From Chloroflexota bacterium (GTDB lineage: Bacteria > Chloroflexota > Dehalococcoidia > Lucifugimonadales > JADFKI01): a stretch of 64,000 nt of DNA. Below are positions 54,001 through 63,000 of this stretch, in pieces (position 1 is the first letter of the stretch; each line of letters starts with the position of its first letter). A program made the position numbers. Where the stretch lies: NCBI GenBank assembly GCA_027623195.1, contig JAQBUT010000021.1:1-64000 (forward strand), written 5' to 3'.

Positions 54001-57000
54001 ACGCCTAACTGGTCAAGCTTGGCAGCGATGGCGAGCTTGTCATCTACTGACAGCGATATGCCTTCGTACTGCGCACCGTCCCTGAGTGTGGTGTCATATA
54101 ACGCTAACTGCACCATTTGTCTGGACCCTCCGTCATTCCTGCCTAGAAAAGTTAAATATCGGAAAATAAAAAAATCCCGTCCCTACGAAAGGGACGGGAT
54201 AAAACTTTCGTGAGAAAGTACCCGCGGTACCACCCTAATTCTCCGGCATGGCCCATTTCTTTGAAAATCCGAAGGCCGTTGCAGGAGCGCTCCTCCAAGG
54301 TACGTATTCATACCTCTGCTCTCGATAACGGGGAGCTAATCCGTCGCCGCCTACTCGAATAACGCTTGTTCTTAGTTGAGGGTTACTCTTTAGGGGCGCG
54401 GCTCGGGAGTGATTTTCCGAGGAGGTCCCAGGCGTCTGCTTCCACCAAACCAGACTCGCTATGCCGGGAATTGTCTCGTACTCGTCTCCGTCGTAGCCTT
54501 TACACGATTTTGTTAAGGTCTAAAATTAAGGTTATCGCGAGGGTGACAGGGTGTCAAGGCAAATCGGACGCCGTCATCACCTTCATGATCTGGATGCCTT
54601 ACGATTGCGAACCTTCTATGATAATTTCCTTTTCAACCTCTGAATGTCCGGAATCCAGGTGAAACTTCTCGATTCTCTCTCGAACGTCGTCCGGAAGATT
54701 CTCTAACATTTCGTCCATGGCCTCGGGAGAAAGGAAATCGGGGAACTCATCTCCGTGCCCTGGCAGCATTCGCAGGTCCCTCTGGAACATGTGGAACTGT
54801 GGACCTTGGAAGCCCATCCCGAAGCCACCTGGTAGTCCGTGTCCCCTCATGAACGAATGACCGGATTTGATTCCCGAGTGCTCACCTTGTGATACGGACT
54901 TCACTTTCCATTCGCCGCCGCCGACTGTCATATCTACGACCGTCGTCAGGTCGTCGGTGTTCAGGCTTGCCAGGTCTCCGACGTGATGAATCGTGACTAT
55001 GGTTTCGTCGTCGATCTGGTATTCGATTATCTCGGAACCGTCTTTTAGGGTCAGCGAAAAGGATCCTGCTTCAACGTCTATGTCGCTTACCGTTCCTACG
55101 GCAGTTCGAATGGTACGCACCCCGTCTTCGGTCTCCTGCTTCACCTCTGACTTTATCAGCCCACTCATGTCGCCGAATTGAGGCGGGTAATGTGGCATAA
55201 AGTTAAGGCCCGTGTAATCGCGGAATGCAGAGGCCGCCACCTGGCGTCCCCCGGACGTGACGTCTATATCCAAGGATTCTCCGTTGCGGGACACTGTGAA
55301 GACAAGCAGGTCTCCGGCTTGGGAGCCATGAACGATTTCAACGACGTCGATTGGGCTGGTCACGACCTTGCCGTCGACCGCCGTAACGATGTCTCCCTGC
55401 ATAAGCAGACCGTCAGCCGGGCTTCCCTCTACCACGCTGGCCACCAGGGCTCCATCCTCCAGACCGGCATCCGCAGCCTCCGCGTCCGATAGAGGAGCTA
55501 ACGCGACGCCAATGAAAGCGACGCCGCTGTGTTCTTCTCCGTCTGCAACCTGTCCCTCGGTCTGATGGGTAGCGATGCGTATGTCAGTCGCTTCGTTGGC
55601 TTGCGACGTCCTGGCGTTGGACGCAACCACGCCGGCAACAGTCAGTACACCTACCACTATGATTAGGCCCGGTATCAATCTTTTCATACTTTTCATAAAT
55701 AGACCTCCACCGCCTTTATCAAGAATTTCAAATGCTGGAATCGGGCATGTGCTTGACCGAGCGATAACGCTACGTCTATGTCAGGAGCATACCCAGACAA
55801 TCGAAATAACGTGAAAGGGCGGCATCTGGTTAGTGCTTTTACCGCCGCATCAACCTCAACCTCGCCAGATGCCGCCCTTGATGGAGGGGACCTCGATCGT
55901 TATTACGCGGCAAAATCGTATGTGGATTTGTGACAAATGAAGGAAGGGGTTAGGTGAGTTCTGTGCGGTAGTGGCAGGGCGCTCTACTGGGGCGTTCCTG
56001 CCCCCTGGATCGTCAGCGGTCTCTCGACCACCGTGCCGTTCTCCATAATATGGAAGGCCTTGATGTCTGGCTCATCGGGGCTTGCAAGAGAGATAAGCAG
56101 GTAATATATGTCTTCACCCAGCCAGCCGCTCTTTTGGGCCATGCGAACGTCTGTGGTTGAGGGGTGTGCCGGGCCTTGAGGATGGGAATGGTAGAAGGCC
56201 ATGAGCTGCCTGCCCTGATTTCGGGATTCCAGCATAACGTTGAGCTGTTGTTGAGGCTCCATCAAGTAGCGGTTTGGATTGCTGGACGTGTTCTTGATGC
56301 GGTACAGATGAGAGGCCACGTCGTCATTTCCGGCAAGGATGCCGCAACACTCGTATGGATTAGCCTCCCGGGCGTGTTCAATGAGTTCTCTCATATGTTC
56401 CCGGGTTATGGCTGGCATTTTCTTCTGACTCCGGTAGCCCCACCCTCTGTCGAAAGGTGGTGATTAAGGCACCCTTAGCGTCCGCGCCGAAACATGTCCA
56501 AGAAGCGGTTCAGCAGTTGGCGCAGAGTTATTTTCCCGGGTCTGTTCAGGCGCTTCTCCGTGCAAGCTACACAACTGCAAGTAGGGGGGTGATCGCTATA
56601 CCATCCTGCTCTGCCCATGACATCGACCTGCCTTCTATCTATGCGGATTTATTGGGAACTGGTCCGAATATCCCTAATTTATTTGAACGTTCAGCTTAGC
56701 ACAAGGTTGGTTAAGAGTTGTTGTTGCAAAGATAATCCGCAAGCCGGTTGACAAATAAGAACAAATATTCTAATATGTTGTGAAGGGACGGACCCATTGG
56801 GTTCGCCCTTTTTTTGTTTGTGATTTTTCGAAATGGATTGCTGGGGTCCGAAGTTCGTCGTCCGAAGCGGATAGTTGATGGAGGTACGTATGGCCTTTTT
56901 CGATTCCAAGGTCTCCAAGTTATTGCTGGATGACACAGGGGGCACACAGCGGGACCTGTCGCCCTTTATCAAGGAGGTGCGCGGGCTTCCCGGCGCCAGG

Positions 57001-60000: not shown

Positions 60001-63000
60001 CTGGCCCGGCGGAAGGACCCCAGGACGGTGCTTAATCTAGTAGTGGTAAATGGCTCAGCGGCCAACCTGATGCTGATCCTGCAGCGCGCATTCTCGGACC
60101 GAGTGACGATCAGCTACAGCGCCATGGGCATCAGTGAAGATTTCTTGGTAGAGGGACATCGGCTTATTGTGAGCCGCGGCTGGACCCTGGTAGAGCGTGA
60201 GCTGCTGCTGCAGGGGGTTTAGGGGGTAGTCGTTAGTTCTTAGTATTTAGTGGAGTTGCCGGGGCACCGATGGCCACTTGCGCAAGTCTCCTTACTAACA
60301 ACTCAAAACTAATAACCAATTACTCGACACTTGGAGCCACGCATGCAAATAGATCTAACGCAATTCCTGAACGCCGGCATAGCGGGCATAATCCTGCTCT
60401 GGTTCATGTTCCGGTTGGAGCGCATCCTCACCCGATTCGACAAGACGGTGCAGTTGATGACCCGCGCCATCATCCGGCTGCTGGAGCGCCACGACGAGCA
60501 TCTGGCCACTCAACTCAGCAAGGAGCTTTACGGCGTAAACGGGGACGAGAGCGGTGGTGGGTAGAGGGGGAACTCGTAGTCGAAATTGAGCGGTCCACTG
60601 TTCTTTTACGACTGCGTATTTGAAGGGGATTCATGGACGAAAAAGGGGCGGAATTGATTCCGCCCCTTTTTAAATTCTGATTCTTATTGCTGGCTAACCC
60701 TTTTGGTAAACCTGTATGCGGTGCCGCGACGTCTCTGTCACGAACATGTGGCCTTGCGGGTCTACGTTGACCGAGGCGGGACCCCAGAAGTAGGGCTCGA
60801 TCTGTGACGAGACAAGGTGCGGTGTGTTGTACTGCTTTGGAAGCTCTTTGGGGTCTAGGTTCGAGATCTTTCGAGTTGCCGTCTCATCCAGGTTGGCGGC
60901 AAAAAATTCGTGGGCCCACTTGGAAAGTGTAGCCTCGCCAAGCAAGGTGGCCCGGTGAGCGAAATCGGCTCCGAAAATCTGGATTCGTTCGTTCTCCCAA
61001 TCCGCCACGTAGATGAACCCGTCTGAGTCCACATCCACGCTGGATGGCCTGCTCATCTGGCCGTCGGCCCGACCCGAGCCTCCGAACTGACCAAGGTACT
61101 GGCCATCACCGGAAAACTTCTGGATGCGATCGTTGCGCCAGTCTGCCACGAATACGCTTCCGTCGGGTGCGGCGTCCACGCCCCAGGGCATGTTCATCTG
61201 GCCGTCGCCGCTGCCGAAGCCGCCAAAGGCCAGTATGAAACGACCATCCTTGGAGAACTTCTGCACCCTGTGGTTGTTCTGGTCGGCAATGTAAACGTTG
61301 TCGTCGGCATCAATATCTATGCCCGACGGTCCGTCCAACTGGCCGTCTCCGCTGCCGCCTTCGCCCCAGTTACGTATGAAATTACCGTCCGCGTCGAAAA
61401 CGACAACTCGATTGTGAAACTCGTCGGTGACGTGCAGGTTCGTGTCACTATCCATGGAGAGGCCCGCAGGCAACTTGAACTGGCCGTCGTCGTCGCCGAA
61501 CTTACCGAACTCGTAAAGGTAGTCCTCGTCTATGTTAGTGACGCCTACGCGGGCGAAGTTAGGCGCTCCGCGGTTCATCACAAAGATGCGTCCGTCTGGA
61601 TGGAATGCCACGTCGACGGGATTAGCAAACCCCCGACCTATCGGCTGATTGTTCACGATGCCGATTGTCTTGAGGTAGCTCAGTTTAATTGTCTTGGATG
61701 CCGATTGCGTTGTCATCAAATGTACCCTGGGTCTGGCTTCAAGTTAGTTAATCTGATATTCCGTGGTAGATGCGATGAGACCAAGCAACTCGCCGATACG
61801 CTGCTCCGACTCGTCACCGGCCTGATGACCTGCCAGAGAAATGGAACCTTTTTCTGCGACTCGTCCCATTAAGGAGTCTCGGGTCTCCGGGTCAACCTGT
61901 CCGGTGCCCAGTAGATCCAGGCAGCTGTCCACAATCTCCTCGGGGGCATACTGACCGCCATTGTTGTTGGCCAATATTTCGATGATGGCGCGGACGCCTG
62001 GCTTGGTGATGTCGCTAATTTCCTTGGCTGCGAAGTTCACTCTCTCCACCAGGGAGCCGCTGTTTATCCATTCCGTGCCCTCGTGCCAGCCCTCTACCGA
62101 TGGCGGATTGAGCAGTGTTTGGCCCATGTATCCTGGCAAGTCCGCGCCTGGAACCATTTCCAGCGTAGGTTTGGTCACGCCGCCGCTGAGCCGCATTGTC
62201 CCGGCCACTAATTCCGCCGGGCCTTTGATCCTAGTGTACTGGGCCTTCTTGAAAAAGTCCGAGTTGAACAGAACGTTCAGCATGTGACCTATATTGTGGC
62301 CGCCGTCGAAGTAGGCCTGCGCTAATGTGTCGATGGCTTCGGGGTCTTTGGGCGGAGTGTAGGGCCACTGGGGCACCGGCTCCTCGTCTGCCACAAAGTA
62401 GTCGTACAAGTGTCGGGCGATGTAACGGGAAGTGGCTGGCTGCTCGCAGATGATGCGAATGATGTCGTCGCCGTTCAGGTCGCCGGTCTCACCCAGGAAG
62501 CGCTTCTCGCCATGGTCATGGTCGTTGTCGCGGAAGTCGAAGTGCCACGCGATGCGTCCGTATGGCCAGATAGAGTCCTTGGAGGCCCGCATAGCCATGT
62601 ATTCGGCATTGCCCAGCGTCCAACCTGTAAAGGCTCGTGAGGCCTCTTTGACATCGTCCTCAGAGTAGTTGCCGATGCCCATGGTAAAGAGCTCTAGCAA
62701 CTCCCGGCCCCAGTTCTCGTTAATGGCGCCGTTGTGGTTGTCCTGGTTGTCCAACCAGATGATCATTGATGGGTCCTGGGCCAGTTCGATGAGCAGATCG
62801 TCAAGCTTGCCCAGTCCATAGTTGCGGAACATGTCTATCTGGTTCAGCAGCGCCCTTGCCTGATTGGTCTTGGCGTAGCCCGTGGCGAAGATGCCGTGCC
62901 AGAACAGCGCGATCTTCTCCTGCATCGGGGCTTTGGTCGTCACCATGCGGTACAGCCAGTAGGCCGCTGCCGAATTGCCAAACCTGAGCTCGTGCATGTC

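What a model noticed while it worked through the whole genome (the two positions that open the first line are those of the whole stretch)
56890..60564. Tail module of a dispersed, order-wide conserved phage-like particle gene set (candidate gene transfer agent of SAR202 b [...]
C3:56890-60564 holds g00199-g00203: a 141-aa tail-tube protein, a 178-aa helical protein, a 120-aa low-complexity protein, a 653-aa baseplate-hub protein with an inserted lectin-like domain, and a 73-aa membrane protein. It is not a prophage scrap but the tail module of a phage-derived structural gene set that is kept, with open frames and 50-93% protein identity, in about a fifth to a third of Lucifugimonadales genomes. 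In one relative the set is contiguous (large terminase, portal, protease, HK97-type capsid, adaptors, tail terminator, tube, hub). In most complete relatives it is split into two or three loci up to 1.8 Mb apart, flanked by cellular genes, with no integrase or replication ge [...]
Evidence so far: g00199-g00203 have no Pfam/NCBIfam/Swiss-Prot row. PHROGs: g00199 = major tail protein phrog_10528, E 1.4e-33; g02543 = tail terminator phrog_17840, E 1.1e-10. AlphaFold2+Foldseek: g00202 (pLDDT 77.9) hits Mu-type, siphophage, diffocin and eCIS baseplate hubs (3d37, 3cdd, 9rku, 9m7n, 8v3w; E 8e-8 to 1e-5) plus CBM66/galectin for the insert (E 3e-9); g00199 (pLDDT 58.6) has six hits at E<=0.001, all tail tubes, and mostly tubes and Hcp below that. 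Relative G001, one 24-kb stretch: TerL (phrog_2, E 6e-33), portal (PF04860, 235 bits), an IS, protease (phrog_80), capsid (PF05065; phrog_10 E 9e-26), small genes including a head-tail adaptor (phrog_442), terminator, tube, 166 aa, 90 aa, hub, 83-aa [...]
(Added by a program. Inside this text positions count along the whole contig: contig position 1 is position 1 of the stretch shown here. "Call 12" and the like, gene names such as g00115 and contig names such as C1 are that model's own, and its searches are not shown. The text may have been shortened before it was handed on; [...] marks where a part breaks off. The agent that wrote the report below was given it as the finding of a first reader that could run no searches.)

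Follow-up and report, generated by a model that had tools for sequence, protein, structure and literature searches.

The report
Tail operon of SAR202 phage-derived particle
Five genes here form the tail-building operon of an ancient virus-derived particle kit that many marine SAR202 bacteria inherit from their ancestors, probably to package DNA; this strain has just lost the matching head genes.

Summary
Window 56890-60564 encodes a tail tube, a chaperone-like protein, a short tape-measure-like protein, a baseplate hub with a lectin insert, and a small membrane protein. Both flanks are cellular genes.

The hub occurs in 89 of 401 genomes of the order, the matching capsid in 161 of 401, and the large terminase in 53 of 53 hub-bearing genomes tested. 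Head and tail genes lie up to 1.8 Mb apart, yet both sit at conserved chromosomal sites across families. The hub tree tracks a host marker tree (Spearman 0.85). Between this genome and its congener, dN/dS is 0.04-0.31.

New here: the terminase, protease-capsid and tube-hub operons share one promoter with a LexA-type box (GAAC-N4-GTxC) between -35 and -10. The tube and terminase promoters are often followed by a conserved leader hairpin. This points to a host-controlled, SOS-linked regulon.

In this strain the head operon is deleted. Only the last 76 codons of the tail terminator remain, at the orthologous site before ribosomal protein L25. Contigs from a second study (about 99% identical) read on into an intact terminator, so the loss is recent and strain-level.

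Best reading: an orphaned but intact tail operon of a domesticated, GTA-like particle system. DNA transfer is untested.

The parts
56748..56776 (+). Promoter of the tail operon: TTGACA, 17 nt, TAATAT. A LexA-type box (GAACAAATATTC, 56759-56770) lies between -35 and -10.
   Evidence: It is the only sigma-70-like site in 56300-60800, matching 10 of 12 positions. The same promoter with the box at a fixed offset occurs in 27 of 35 tube-upstream regions of relatives. Similar boxes sit at the lexA and recA promoters of this and related genomes.
56782..56818 (+). Leader hairpin (GGGACGGACCC, loop, GGGTTCGCCC) followed by a T-run, right at the predicted transcript start. It is terminator-like and may be an attenuator or a 5' stabiliser.
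   Evidence: It is called by the terminator scan and folds as predicted. The stem sequence GGGAC[AG]GACC is kept in 21 of 27 relatives' tube leaders while the loops vary (my count). It also precedes TerL in G275 and G049.
56890..57315 (+). Tail tube (major tail) protein, 141 aa.
   Evidence: phrog_10528 at E 1.4e-33 over the full length. It is 51-93% identical in relatives. dN/dS is 0.038 against G394.
57367..57903 (+). 178-aa protein, a probable tail assembly chaperone. It has an N-terminal beta-hairpin motif (LPSGGWW...RP.W) followed by a helical domain.
   Evidence: The AF2 model has pLDDT 82.5. The three best VIA-align hits, all to residues 1-100, are YqbN 3klu (Z 6.3), PICI-like ORF19 5ir0 (Z 4.9) and the HK97 tail assembly chaperone 2ob9 (Z 4.8). 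These Z values are modest. The gene lies between tube and hub. Alignment A2 has 15 invariant columns.
57857..58219 (+). 120-aa protein with a low-complexity middle of variable length and a conserved C-terminal helix. It is a candidate miniature tape-measure or tube-plug protein.
   Evidence: Alignment A3 shows lengths of 66-143 aa and a C-end conserved in 20 of 23 rows. It is lost together with the 178-aa gene in genus g2 and family f25. The complex prediction with the 178-aa protein gave only weak support.
58255..60222 (+). Baseplate hub (gp27 / Mu gp44 / Tal / VgrG-type fold), 655 aa, with an inserted CBM66-like lectin domain at about residues 90-270.
   Evidence: AF2 gives pLDDT 94.4 and pTM 0.90. 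Foldseek hits include 3d37 at 2.3e-11, eCIS hubs 7aef_q and 9gtr_q, Mu gp44 1wru and 9ki1, T5 pb3, lambda J, and CBM66 4b1m at 6.4e-9. There are 2985 homologues at E<=1e-3 in 1.84 billion representatives.
60343..60564 (+). 73-aa protein with one N-terminal membrane helix and a charged helical tail. A holin-like role is a guess.
   Evidence: Alignment A4 of 18 rows has 62% mean identity and 17 invariant columns. The nearest Atlas clusters are small unnamed Chloroflexota and Uroviricota proteins and YvrJ. No PHROG or Pfam hit.
35961..37252 (.). Regulatory trio: M78/ImmA-like peptidase (35961-36377, +), XRE-type HTH (36421-36795, -) and a double zinc-ribbon protein (36887-37252, +). In relatives these stand directly upstream of the terminase. 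Here an MFS transporter gene follows instead.
   Evidence: tblastx against the G001 head-module start gives 57%, 62% and 45-71% identity. M78 matches phrog_87 and the HTH matches PF01381. M78-HTH precedes TerL in G001, G275 and G020. Membership in the system rests on position only.

Best explanation
The five genes are one operon that builds a short non-contractile tail. The parts are a tube, a chaperone, a miniature tape-measure-like protein, a trimeric hub carrying a sugar-binding insert, and a small membrane protein. The operon belongs to an old, chromosomally fixed, phage-derived head-and-tail gene set of this SAR202 order.

The set comprises terminase and portal, protease and HK97-type capsid, adaptor, terminator and this tail. 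It was split into separate operons before several families diverged and has been inherited vertically since. Each operon carries the same promoter with a LexA-type box. I therefore infer that the host's SOS repressor keeps all parts silent and releases them together after DNA damage. A conserved leader hairpin may give a second check. The product is most likely a small tailed particle that packages DNA, like a gene transfer agent.

In this particular strain the head operon has been deleted very recently. The tail operon is intact and still looks selected, but it is now orphaned.

Shown: gene identities, distribution, synteny, co-divergence, purifying selection, the shared cis-elements, and the strain-level deletion. 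Inferred: LexA control, co-assembly of head and tail, and packaging and transfer of host DNA.
For: Identity: tube phrog_10528 at 1.4e-33. Hub model pLDDT 94.4, with hub folds at 2e-11 to 1e-6. The chaperone-like fold comes top in VIA-align.

Distribution: hub in 89 of 401 genomes of the order and capsid in 161 of 401. Presence is near-universal in some families (f1 21/23 for both, f12 11/11 and 10/11) and nil in others (f7 0/13, f24 0/21). TerL is in 53 of 53 hub-bearing genomes. By my hand tally, 76 of 89 hub-positive genomes also have the capsid.

Dispersal: hub, capsid and TerL lie at two or three loci in G040, G261, G302, G327, G011 and G096.

Fixed sites: the tail's left flank (UvrD-SpeE-SpeD-PDZ-JAB) is shared by G000, G394, G054, G049, G020 and G043. 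The right flank (NHL-DUF1800-x265) is shared with 6 of 8 genus-g2 genomes. The head module ends terminator, ribosomal protein L25, enolase-family gene in G275, G020, G054, G049 and on G000 contig C60.

Co-divergence: all 8 multi-member families are clades in the hub tree, which needs 16 label changes, the minimum possible. Patristic distances against the Mfd tree give Spearman 0.854, with 0 of 999 permutations as high.

Selection: dN/dS against G394 is 0.038 for tube, 0.07-0.085 for hub, 0.11 for the 73-aa protein, 0.18 for the 178-aa protein and 0.31 for the 120-aa protein.

Regulon: the promoter plus box occurs in 27 of 35 tube-upstream regions, with the box within 1 mismatch in 21 of 27, against 1.05% of random windows. 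The same architecture precedes TerL (G275, G049) and the protease (G275, G118, G040, G315, G261, G020, G001, G172, G131, G156). lexA and recA promoters carry like boxes. GAAC-N4-GTTC is the published LexA motif of B. subtilis and Gram-positives (PMC3323433, passage read).

No integrase or replication gene is in the G001 cluster.

Recent head loss: contigs of three runs from a second study break at C60 574|575 and read ten further in-frame terminator codons upstream. These contigs extend 461-3521 nt beyond the break. There is no rate excess in G000: 22 derived changes against 18 in G394, p = 0.64.
Against: No particle, packaged DNA or transcript has been seen, and no RNA run is listed.

No small terminase, endolysin or receptor-binding fibre was recognised.

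The hub tree conflicts with the Mfd tree at depth. G000 and G275 nest among families f2, f33, f43, f49, f54 and f59 (SH-aLRT 99), while Mfd puts them outside that group (99). Old allelic replacement or strong rate shifts therefore occurred.

The same-family genus g2 has the most divergent tail (52-60% hub identity) and lacks two of the five genes.

The M78/XRE pair next to the terminase is a prophage-style switch. The box could be its operator rather than LexA's.

Several lineages show decay: G059 and G098 hold fused TerL and hub fragments, G000 lacks the head, and G200 lacks both. 13 of 89 hub-positive genomes gave no capsid hit.

Some genomes carry 3-6 TerL homologues, so a TerL hit need not belong to this set.

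The hairpin sequence also occurs at two other terminator-like sites in this genome, so it may be a generic terminator.
Confidence: 0.62

Rival explanations
1. The same domesticated head-tail particle acts as a killer particle like PBSX rather than a transfer agent. It would be SOS-induced, released by lysis, adsorb to and damage competitors through the lectin-bearing hub, and package DNA only as a by-product.
For: The sequence evidence is the same as for the best explanation. SOS-type boxes and an XRE/M78 switch are the control logic of defective-phage bacteriocins (that comparison is from my own knowledge of PBSX and pyocins). The hub carries a carbohydrate-binding insert.
Against: Nothing in the sequence separates killing from transfer. 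No sheath or killing domain was found. The tail is minimal.
Confidence: 0.15
2. The tail operon works on its own, without heads, as an F-type tailocin-like or adhesive structure. That would explain why it stays intact in this head-less strain.
For: All five frames are open, dN/dS is low, and the operon has its own SOS-type promoter in a genome without capsid, portal or terminase. Foldseek also hits the monocin tip, 9j1k.
Against: The head loss is strain-level and recent, so intact frames are expected anyway. TerL is in 53 of 53 hub-bearing genomes and capsid in 76 of 89. The tail terminator that caps the tube is truncated here. The tail was once contiguous with the head genes, as in G001, G172, G131 and f25.
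Confidence: 0.1
3. The set is a decaying cryptic prophage family with no host function, kept only by slow decay.
For: Decay is seen in several genomes: G059, G098, G000, G200 and the split hub of G394. IS insertions occur in G001, G172 and G152.
Against: Frames are open in nearly all of about 55 full-length hubs. Identity stays at 52-90% across host lineages whose Mfd is only 59-87% identical. dN/dS is 0.04-0.31 at dS of about 1. The split arrangement and the promoters are conserved across families.
Confidence: 0.07
4. It is an active mobile element, either a temperate phage or a phage satellite that uses a helper and moves between SAR202 lineages.
For: The hub and host trees conflict at depth. 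An M78/XRE switch is present. TerL is multi-copy in some genomes.
Against: No integrase, replication or att-like features were found. The set is single copy and its genes are dispersed up to 1.8 Mb apart. The chromosomal sites are the same across families. All 8 multi-member families are clades.
Confidence: 0.05

Closest known systems
RcGTA-type gene transfer agents of Alphaproteobacteria (multi-locus GTA 'genome'; PMC5026251, listing and start of abstract seen)
   Same: Both are chromosomal, vertically inherited, siphovirus-like head-tail gene sets without integrase or replication genes. Both spread genes over several loci, are under host regulators, and share the order TerL, portal, protease, HK97 capsid, adaptors, terminator, tube, chaperone, (tape measure), hub.
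   Different: The host phylum differs and no family-level sequence link was seen; the matches are generic phage PHROGs. Direct comparison with RcGTA proteins was not run. This set has no normal tape measure, distal tail protein or large 'megatron'-type protein. Its head and tail operons are themselves split. Control appears to use LexA-type boxes and an M78/XRE pair rather than CtrA/GafA (the RcGTA details are recalled, apart from the abstracts listed).
PBSX-type defective prophages / phage-like bacteriocins of Bacillus (recalled)
   Same: Both have SOS-linked induction, an XRE-type repressor next to the structural genes, a particle that cannot propagate itself, and the chaperone-like YqbN/XkN fold (3klu, Z 6.3).
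   Different: PBSX is one contiguous block with a contractile sheath and long tape measure, in a narrow host range. Here there is no sheath, the operons are dispersed, and conservation is order-wide.
Mu gp44 / Neisseria 3d37 / siphophage Tal / eCIS and T6SS VgrG baseplate hubs
   Same: The hub shares the four-domain hub fold, with Foldseek E from 2e-11 to 1e-6.
   Different: Sequence identity is 6-12%. A CBM66-like lectin domain is inserted. There is no spike or lysin extension.
F-type tailocins (pyocin F, monocin)
   Same: Both are non-contractile tail gene sets in a chromosome with SOS-type control. The monocin tip 9j1k is among the fold hits.
   Different: Tailocins have no head genes anywhere in the genome. 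Relatives here keep terminase, portal and capsid.

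Membership tests
Gene transfer agent (functional class) | Phage-type head and tail structural genes encoded in the host chromosome | tested here: met
   TerL, portal, protease, HK97 capsid, adaptor, terminator, tube and hub were identified in relatives. Tube and hub are present in the window. The head genes are missing in this strain.
Gene transfer agent (functional class) | Cannot propagate itself: no integrase or replication genes, and genes not packageable as one unit | tested here: met
   No integrase or replication hit in the G001 cluster, only an IS transposase. 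Loci lie up to 1.79 Mb apart in G011.
Gene transfer agent (functional class) | Vertical inheritance with the host and purifying selection | tested here: met
   Flanks are conserved across families. Family labels need the minimum 16 changes on the hub tree. Spearman is 0.854 against Mfd distances. dN/dS is 0.04-0.31. Caveat: one well-supported deep conflict exists.
Gene transfer agent (functional class) | Particles package random host DNA, less than needed to encode the particle | not testable with these tools
   This needs particle purification and sequencing.
Gene transfer agent (functional class) | Delivery of packaged DNA to recipient cells | not testable with these tools
   This needs a transfer assay.
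Gene transfer agent (functional class) | Expression under host regulators | tested here: inconclusive
   A LexA-type box lies in the promoters of all three operons, and like boxes lie at lexA and recA. Binding is not shown, and the box could serve the XRE protein instead.
RcGTA family (Alphaproteobacteria) | Tail part with tape measure (g11), distal tail protein (g12), hub (g13) and large g14/g15 proteins (gene list recalled) | tested here: not met
   Only tube, a 178-aa protein, a 120-aa protein, hub and a 73-aa protein lie between the promoter and the cellular NHL gene.
RcGTA family (Alphaproteobacteria) | Sequence homology to RcGTA proteins | not tested
Phage tail tube (major tail protein, phrog_10528) | Full-length profile match | tested here: met
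   E 1.4e-33, residues 2-141 on profile positions 3-142 of 142.
gp27 / gp44 / Tal-type baseplate hub | Hub fold over the whole chain | tested here: met
   pLDDT 94.4. 3d37 at 2.3e-11 (TM to target 0.61), 1wru, 9ki1, 7aef_q, 9gtr_q and 1k28_D.
Tail assembly chaperone (gpG/gpGT type) | Chaperone fold, and a position between tube and tape measure | tested here: inconclusive
   The position fits. VIA-align's top three are 3klu (Z 6.3), 5ir0 (Z 4.9) and 2ob9 (Z 4.8) over residues 1-100. Foldseek finds nothing at E<=1e-3.
Tail assembly chaperone (gpG/gpGT type) | Programmed -1 frameshift into an overlapping downstream frame | tested here: not met
   The next ORF (57857-58219) overlaps by 47 nt but lies in the +1 frame and has its own start (frame arithmetic).
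Tape measure protein | Long protein (hundreds of residues) between chaperone and hub | tested here: not met
   The position fits, but the length is only 66-143 aa, with a low-complexity middle. It is therefore tape-measure-like by position only.
F-type tailocin | Tail genes kept in genomes that lack head and packaging genes | tested here: not met
   TerL is in 53 of 53 hub-bearing genomes and capsid in 76 of 89. The head-less state of G000 is a recent strain-level deletion.

The most novel reading that the evidence does not exclude
SAR202 bacteria, among the most abundant cells of the dark ocean, carry an independently domesticated gene transfer agent. It predates the split of many families of the order. 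Its head, packaging and tail operons are scattered on the chromosome but wired together by LexA boxes and a conserved leader hairpin that a small zinc-ribbon protein may read through. DNA damage would then trigger particle production and gene exchange.
Probability: 0.4. Interest if true: 0.85.

Novelty: new member of a known kind. Interest (0 to 1): 0.72.

Why it matters
Gene transfer agents are known from few lineages, mainly Alphaproteobacteria. An independent one in Chloroflexota/SAR202 would be a route of gene exchange in a dominant deep-ocean group that is barely culturable. It would show again that cells repeatedly tame tailed phages.

The shared promoter-and-operator signature gives a concrete way to find all members of the regulon from sequence. 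It can be tested by LexA binding and by DNA-damage induction.

The strain-level head deletion is a natural experiment on what happens to an orphaned tail operon.

In the library searched I found no paper describing such an element. Searches were 'gene transfer agent' with SAR202, Chloroflexi or Chloroflexota, and SAR202 with prophage. I judged the results from listings only, apart from one passage read.

Tried and rejected
- Foldseek of the 178-aa model against PDB gave nothing at E<=1e-3. The HK97 chaperone 2ob9 appeared only at rank 18, E 3.
- Rfam on 56600-57000 gave only sub-threshold noise: L20_leader at 22 bits against a gathering score of 58.7.
- Expression could not be assessed, because no RNA holder is listed among the runs.
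- I tried to fetch the second-study sequence upstream of C60:575. An exact 40-mer scan of metagenome contigs found 0 hits. A protein search with L25 found no close relative, best 46%. The two 30-letter loose ends are not in this assembly, which fits a deletion, but the assembly is only 87% complete.
- Earlier notes of this scan held nothing on this element.
- I considered JAB as a tail-assembly peptidase like lambda K and rejected it. It is on the opposite strand, is not next to the tail in most families, and associates with ThiS and CO-dehydrogenase-type genes.
- I considered clusters c29/c14/c30 as tail fibres and rejected that. They are molybdopterin dehydrogenase subunits plus ThiS.
- I first read window 36887-37252 as a TerL N-terminal remnant. 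It is an intact separate zinc-ribbon ORF that also precedes TerL in G001.
- I considered a gpG/gpGT -1 frameshift joining the 178-aa and 120-aa frames. The frame relation is +1, so I did not pursue it.
- My first greedy longest-ORF caller mis-called genes in G001. I replaced it with a codon-usage caller.
- The first tblastx at a loose threshold was mostly noise.

Full report
WHAT IS THERE. On the + strand of the window lie five tightly packed genes. They are tube (56890-57315), a 178-aa protein (TTG 57367-57903, AGGAG upstream), a 120-aa protein (57857-58219), a 655-aa hub (58255-60222) and a 73-aa protein (ATG 60343-60564). The neighbours on both sides are ordinary cellular genes on the other strand: LeuA-like, PDZ protease and JAB to the left, and NHL-repeat, DUF1800 and others to the right. 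The rest of the window is cellular as well, including the nuo operon, Mfd, UvrD and spermidine synthesis. GC content does not stand out.

IDENTITY OF THE PARTS.
- Tube: it matches phrog_10528 'major tail protein' end to end at E 1.4e-33.
- Hub: the query has 2985 homologues at E<=1e-3 among 1.84 billion representatives. With a 53-row alignment it folds at pLDDT 94.4 and pTM 0.90. Foldseek finds the hub fold of Neisseria 3d37 (2.3e-11), Mu gp44, eCIS and T6SS hubs, T5 pb3, lambda J and siphophage Tal. It finds CBM66 (6e-9) for an inserted lectin-like domain.
- 178-aa protein: it has an invariant N-terminal hairpin motif and a helical domain. Foldseek gives nothing significant. The three best VIA-align matches to its N-domain are YqbN 3klu (Z 6.3, rmsd 4.7, 90 residues aligned), a PICI-like ORF19 (Z 4.9) and the HK97 tail assembly chaperone 2ob9 (Z 4.8). 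These values are modest, so 'chaperone' is a likely label and is not shown.
- 120-aa protein: it has a variable low-complexity middle (66-143 aa overall in relatives) and a strongly conserved C-terminal helix. By position it stands where a tape measure would, but it is far too short to be a normal one.
- Possible contact between the two: a complex prediction of the 178-aa and 120-aa proteins gave weak support only. The median score was 0.41 (runs 0.24, 0.50, 0.41) and the best control 0.02. The mark was reached by 116 of 157 solved complexes and 2 of 215 mismatched pairs. At scores of 0.60 or under, though, it was reached by only 18 of those 157 and by both mismatches that passed. The runs agree in at least 32% of contacts, and the partner's pLDDT is at least 48.
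- 73-aa protein: it has one membrane helix and a conserved charged tail, with 17 invariant columns in 18 rows. Its nearest Atlas clusters are small Chloroflexota and viral proteins. A holin-like role is a guess.

THE WIDER GENE SET. In relative G001 one 18-kb stretch reads as follows: M78 peptidase, XRE HTH, zinc-ribbon protein, TerL, portal, an IS, protease, HK97-type capsid, several small genes, a LamG protein, a fused head-tail adaptor, tail terminator, tube, 166 aa, 90 aa, hub and 83 aa. Cellular genes lie at both ends, and no integrase or replication gene is present.

Across a sample of 401 genomes of the order, the hub is found in 89 (38 of 222 high-quality ones). It is near-universal in some families and absent in others. 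Nearly all frames are open. The capsid is found in 161 of 401 and TerL in 53 of 53 hub-bearing genomes tested. By my hand tally, 76 of the 89 hub-positive genomes also have the capsid. The 13 without it are mostly weak or fragmentary hub matches or incomplete genomes. Four of the 13 have a full-length hub: G000, G043, G226 and G392.

In single-contig genomes the three gene groups lie apart. In G040 hub and capsid are 627 kb apart. In G302 they are 499 kb apart, in G327 811 kb, and in G011 1.79 Mb. In other genomes they lie together: G048, G297, G310, and f25 with only about 4 kb between capsid and hub.

VERTICAL INHERITANCE. I built gene maps of 49 stretches from 47 genomes. The tail operon's left flank here (two conserved genes, UvrD, SpeE, SpeD, PDZ, JAB) recurs, in part or whole, in G394 (same genus), G054, G049, G020 and G043, which belong to four other families. 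The right flank (NHL, DUF1800, a 265-aa gene) recurs in 6 of 8 genomes of the sister genus g2.

The head module likewise ends terminator, ribosomal protein L25, enolase-family gene in G275, G020, G054 and G049. The separation of head and tail between terminator and tube is therefore old, and both halves have stayed in place since.

In the hub tree every one of the 8 families with two or more members is a clade, needing 16 label changes, the minimum possible. The branching inside families mirrors a tree of the host protein Mfd. Patristic distances of the two trees correlate at Spearman 0.854 over 820 pairs, with 0 of 999 permutations as high, and at 0.83 between groups.

Against a simple picture, the hub tree places G000 and G275 inside a group of six other families (SH-aLRT 99), whereas Mfd puts them outside it (99). 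Genus g2 has lost the 178-aa and 120-aa genes and has unusually divergent tube and hub (51-60% identity), although its Mfd is as close to G000 as that of other families (65-67%). A rate shift after the gene loss, or an old allelic replacement, would explain this. I could not decide between the two.

SELECTION. Against the same-genus genome G394, dN/dS is 0.038 (tube), 0.085 and 0.071 (two hub fragments), 0.11 (73 aa), 0.18 (178 aa) and 0.31 (120 aa), at dS of 0.55-1.1. With five outgroups, G000 has 22 derived amino-acid changes and G394 has 18 (p = 0.64). This lineage therefore shows no sign of relaxed constraint.

A SHARED CONTROL REGION (new). Upstream of the tube lies the only sigma-70-like promoter of the region, TTGACA-17-TAATAT at 56748-56776. 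It is followed at once by a strong hairpin and T-run at 56782-56818.

In 27 of 35 relatives' tube-upstream regions the same promoter is present. It carries a 12-nt box GAAC-N4-GT[T/G/A]C at a fixed offset between -35 and -10. The box is perfect in 5 and within 1 mismatch in 21 of the 27, against 1.05% of random 23-nt windows of this genome. These sequences are related to one another, so the comparison shows conservation and does not give a probability. The 8 regions without the promoter include the contiguous-type genomes, where the tube follows the terminator gene.

The stem sequence GGGAC[A/G]GACC of the hairpin is kept in 21 of the 27 while the loops differ (my count). The same promoter and box stand before TerL in G275 and G049, there with the same hairpin. 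They also stand before the protease-capsid operon in G275, G118, G040, G315, G261, G020, G001, G172, G131 and G156.

In the 49 mapped stretches the composite motif occurs 37 times. Of these, 25 lie directly before tube, the 178-aa gene or the protease. At least 4 of the 9 hits with no called gene are tube promoters already listed.

Boxes of the same form lie just after the -10 of lexA in G000, G118, G049 and G011, and before recA in G000, G118 and G275. GAAC-N4-GTTC is the published LexA site of Bacillus subtilis and Gram-positive bacteria (PMC3323433, passage read). I therefore infer that LexA represses all three operons. The XRE protein next to the terminase is the alternative reader of the box.

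The hairpin could be an attenuator needing an antiterminator, for which the zinc-ribbon protein is a candidate, or simply a 5' stabiliser. Two other copies of the stem in this genome look like ordinary terminators. In G000 the composite promoter occurs at only a few places. One of them precedes a small zinc-ribbon ORF on contig C11 that resembles the one at 36887-37252.

THIS STRAIN HAS LOST THE HEAD OPERON. Searches of the 87%-complete assembly with G001 proteins and with Pfam models find no TerL, portal, protease or capsid. They do find the M78, HTH and zinc-ribbon trio at 35961-37252, followed by an MFS gene instead of TerL. They also find the last 76 codons of the terminator on contig C60, 575-802. 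That fragment is followed by L25, the enolase-family gene and further genes in the same order as in relatives. The head operon was therefore removed at its ancestral site.

I laid public contigs on C60:1-4000. A run from the same study as the likely source bridges the junction 574|575. Three runs of a second study, about 99% identical (about 10 differences in 4 kb), all break exactly there. Their sequence before 575 reads ten more codons that continue the terminator frame and match G001's terminator, on contigs that extend 461-3521 nt further. Their sequence after 574 is different again. Neither 30-letter end occurs in this assembly.

Near-identical strains thus still have at least an intact terminator. 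That they also keep the head genes is probable but not seen. The deletion here is recent, which explains why the orphaned tail operon shows no decay.

The first 68 nt of C60 are repeated at the end of contig C20, so what lies further left is unresolved. In the same genus, G394 keeps protease and capsid, but its hub is split over two contigs with unrelated sequence in between. G200 has neither hub nor capsid at 86% completeness.

VERDICT. The family-level case for a domesticated, host-regulated, phage-derived particle is strong. That the particle transfers host DNA is an inference by analogy with known GTAs; a PBSX-like killer particle fits the sequence data equally well. For this genome the tail operon is best seen as a freshly orphaned part.

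I found no description of such an element in Chloroflexota or SAR202 in the paper library (listings only, plus one passage). I did not test it.

Noticed in passing
relatives G134, G216, G165, G183, G093 (places listed): These genomes carry 3-6 open-frame TerL homologues of about 470 aa, about 60% identical to G001's TerL, scattered around the chromosome. This looks like a multi-copy element carrying a terminase-like gene, distinct from the single-copy head-tail set.
   Followed up: no
G059:C1:1643575-1644795 and G098:C13:906326-907447: The C-terminal third of the hub (residues 452-655) abuts a stop-riddled N-terminal TerL fragment. This appears to be a deletion that removed everything between terminase and hub in a once-contiguous cluster.
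   Followed up: partly
G000 contig C11, about 142830-143108 (- strand): A promoter with the same -35, box and -10 design as the tail operon precedes a small zinc-ribbon ORF of about 75 aa (CxxCGGD...CxQCG). It resembles the zinc-ribbon protein at window 36887-37252 and may be a second regulon member or regulator.
   Followed up: partly
G020:C1:3356944-3357732, G049:C3:1393383-1394171: recA lies directly beside the M78-HTH-TerL start of the head module in G020, and a few kb from the head module's L25 end in G049.
   Followed up: no
families f14, f23, f5, f37, f42: The capsid is near-universal in these families (for example f14 23/24, f23 18/24, f5 5/5), but the hub query finds little or nothing there. 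The same head module may be paired with a different or very divergent tail. In f25 and these families the capsid match covers only residues about 166-498, with a second separate match.
   Followed up: no
window 21249-21557: A DUF559 (endonuclease-like) gene sits inside the nuo operon, between the chain 4L and chain 5 genes.
   Followed up: no
window 46805-47326 (- strand): An AhpC/TSA peroxiredoxin is split into two ORFs of 90 and 61 aa. It is probably a frameshifted or interrupted gene.
   Followed up: no
window 11536-12194: A PIN-domain protein (140 aa) overlaps a 78-aa upstream ORF by one base. This is a likely toxin-antitoxin pair.
   Followed up: no
G000 C11:57489-57516, C16:31753: Perfect hairpins with the same stem (GGGACGGACC...GGTCCGTCCC) as the tail-operon leader occur at other terminator-like sites. 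This may be a recurrent terminator sequence family in this genome.
   Followed up: partly
G394:C85:1-528 (L075): 528 nt with no similarity to G000 or to any fetched locus precede hub residue 454, while hub residues 1-89 end another contig (C91). The same-genus hub may be interrupted by an insertion.
   Followed up: partly
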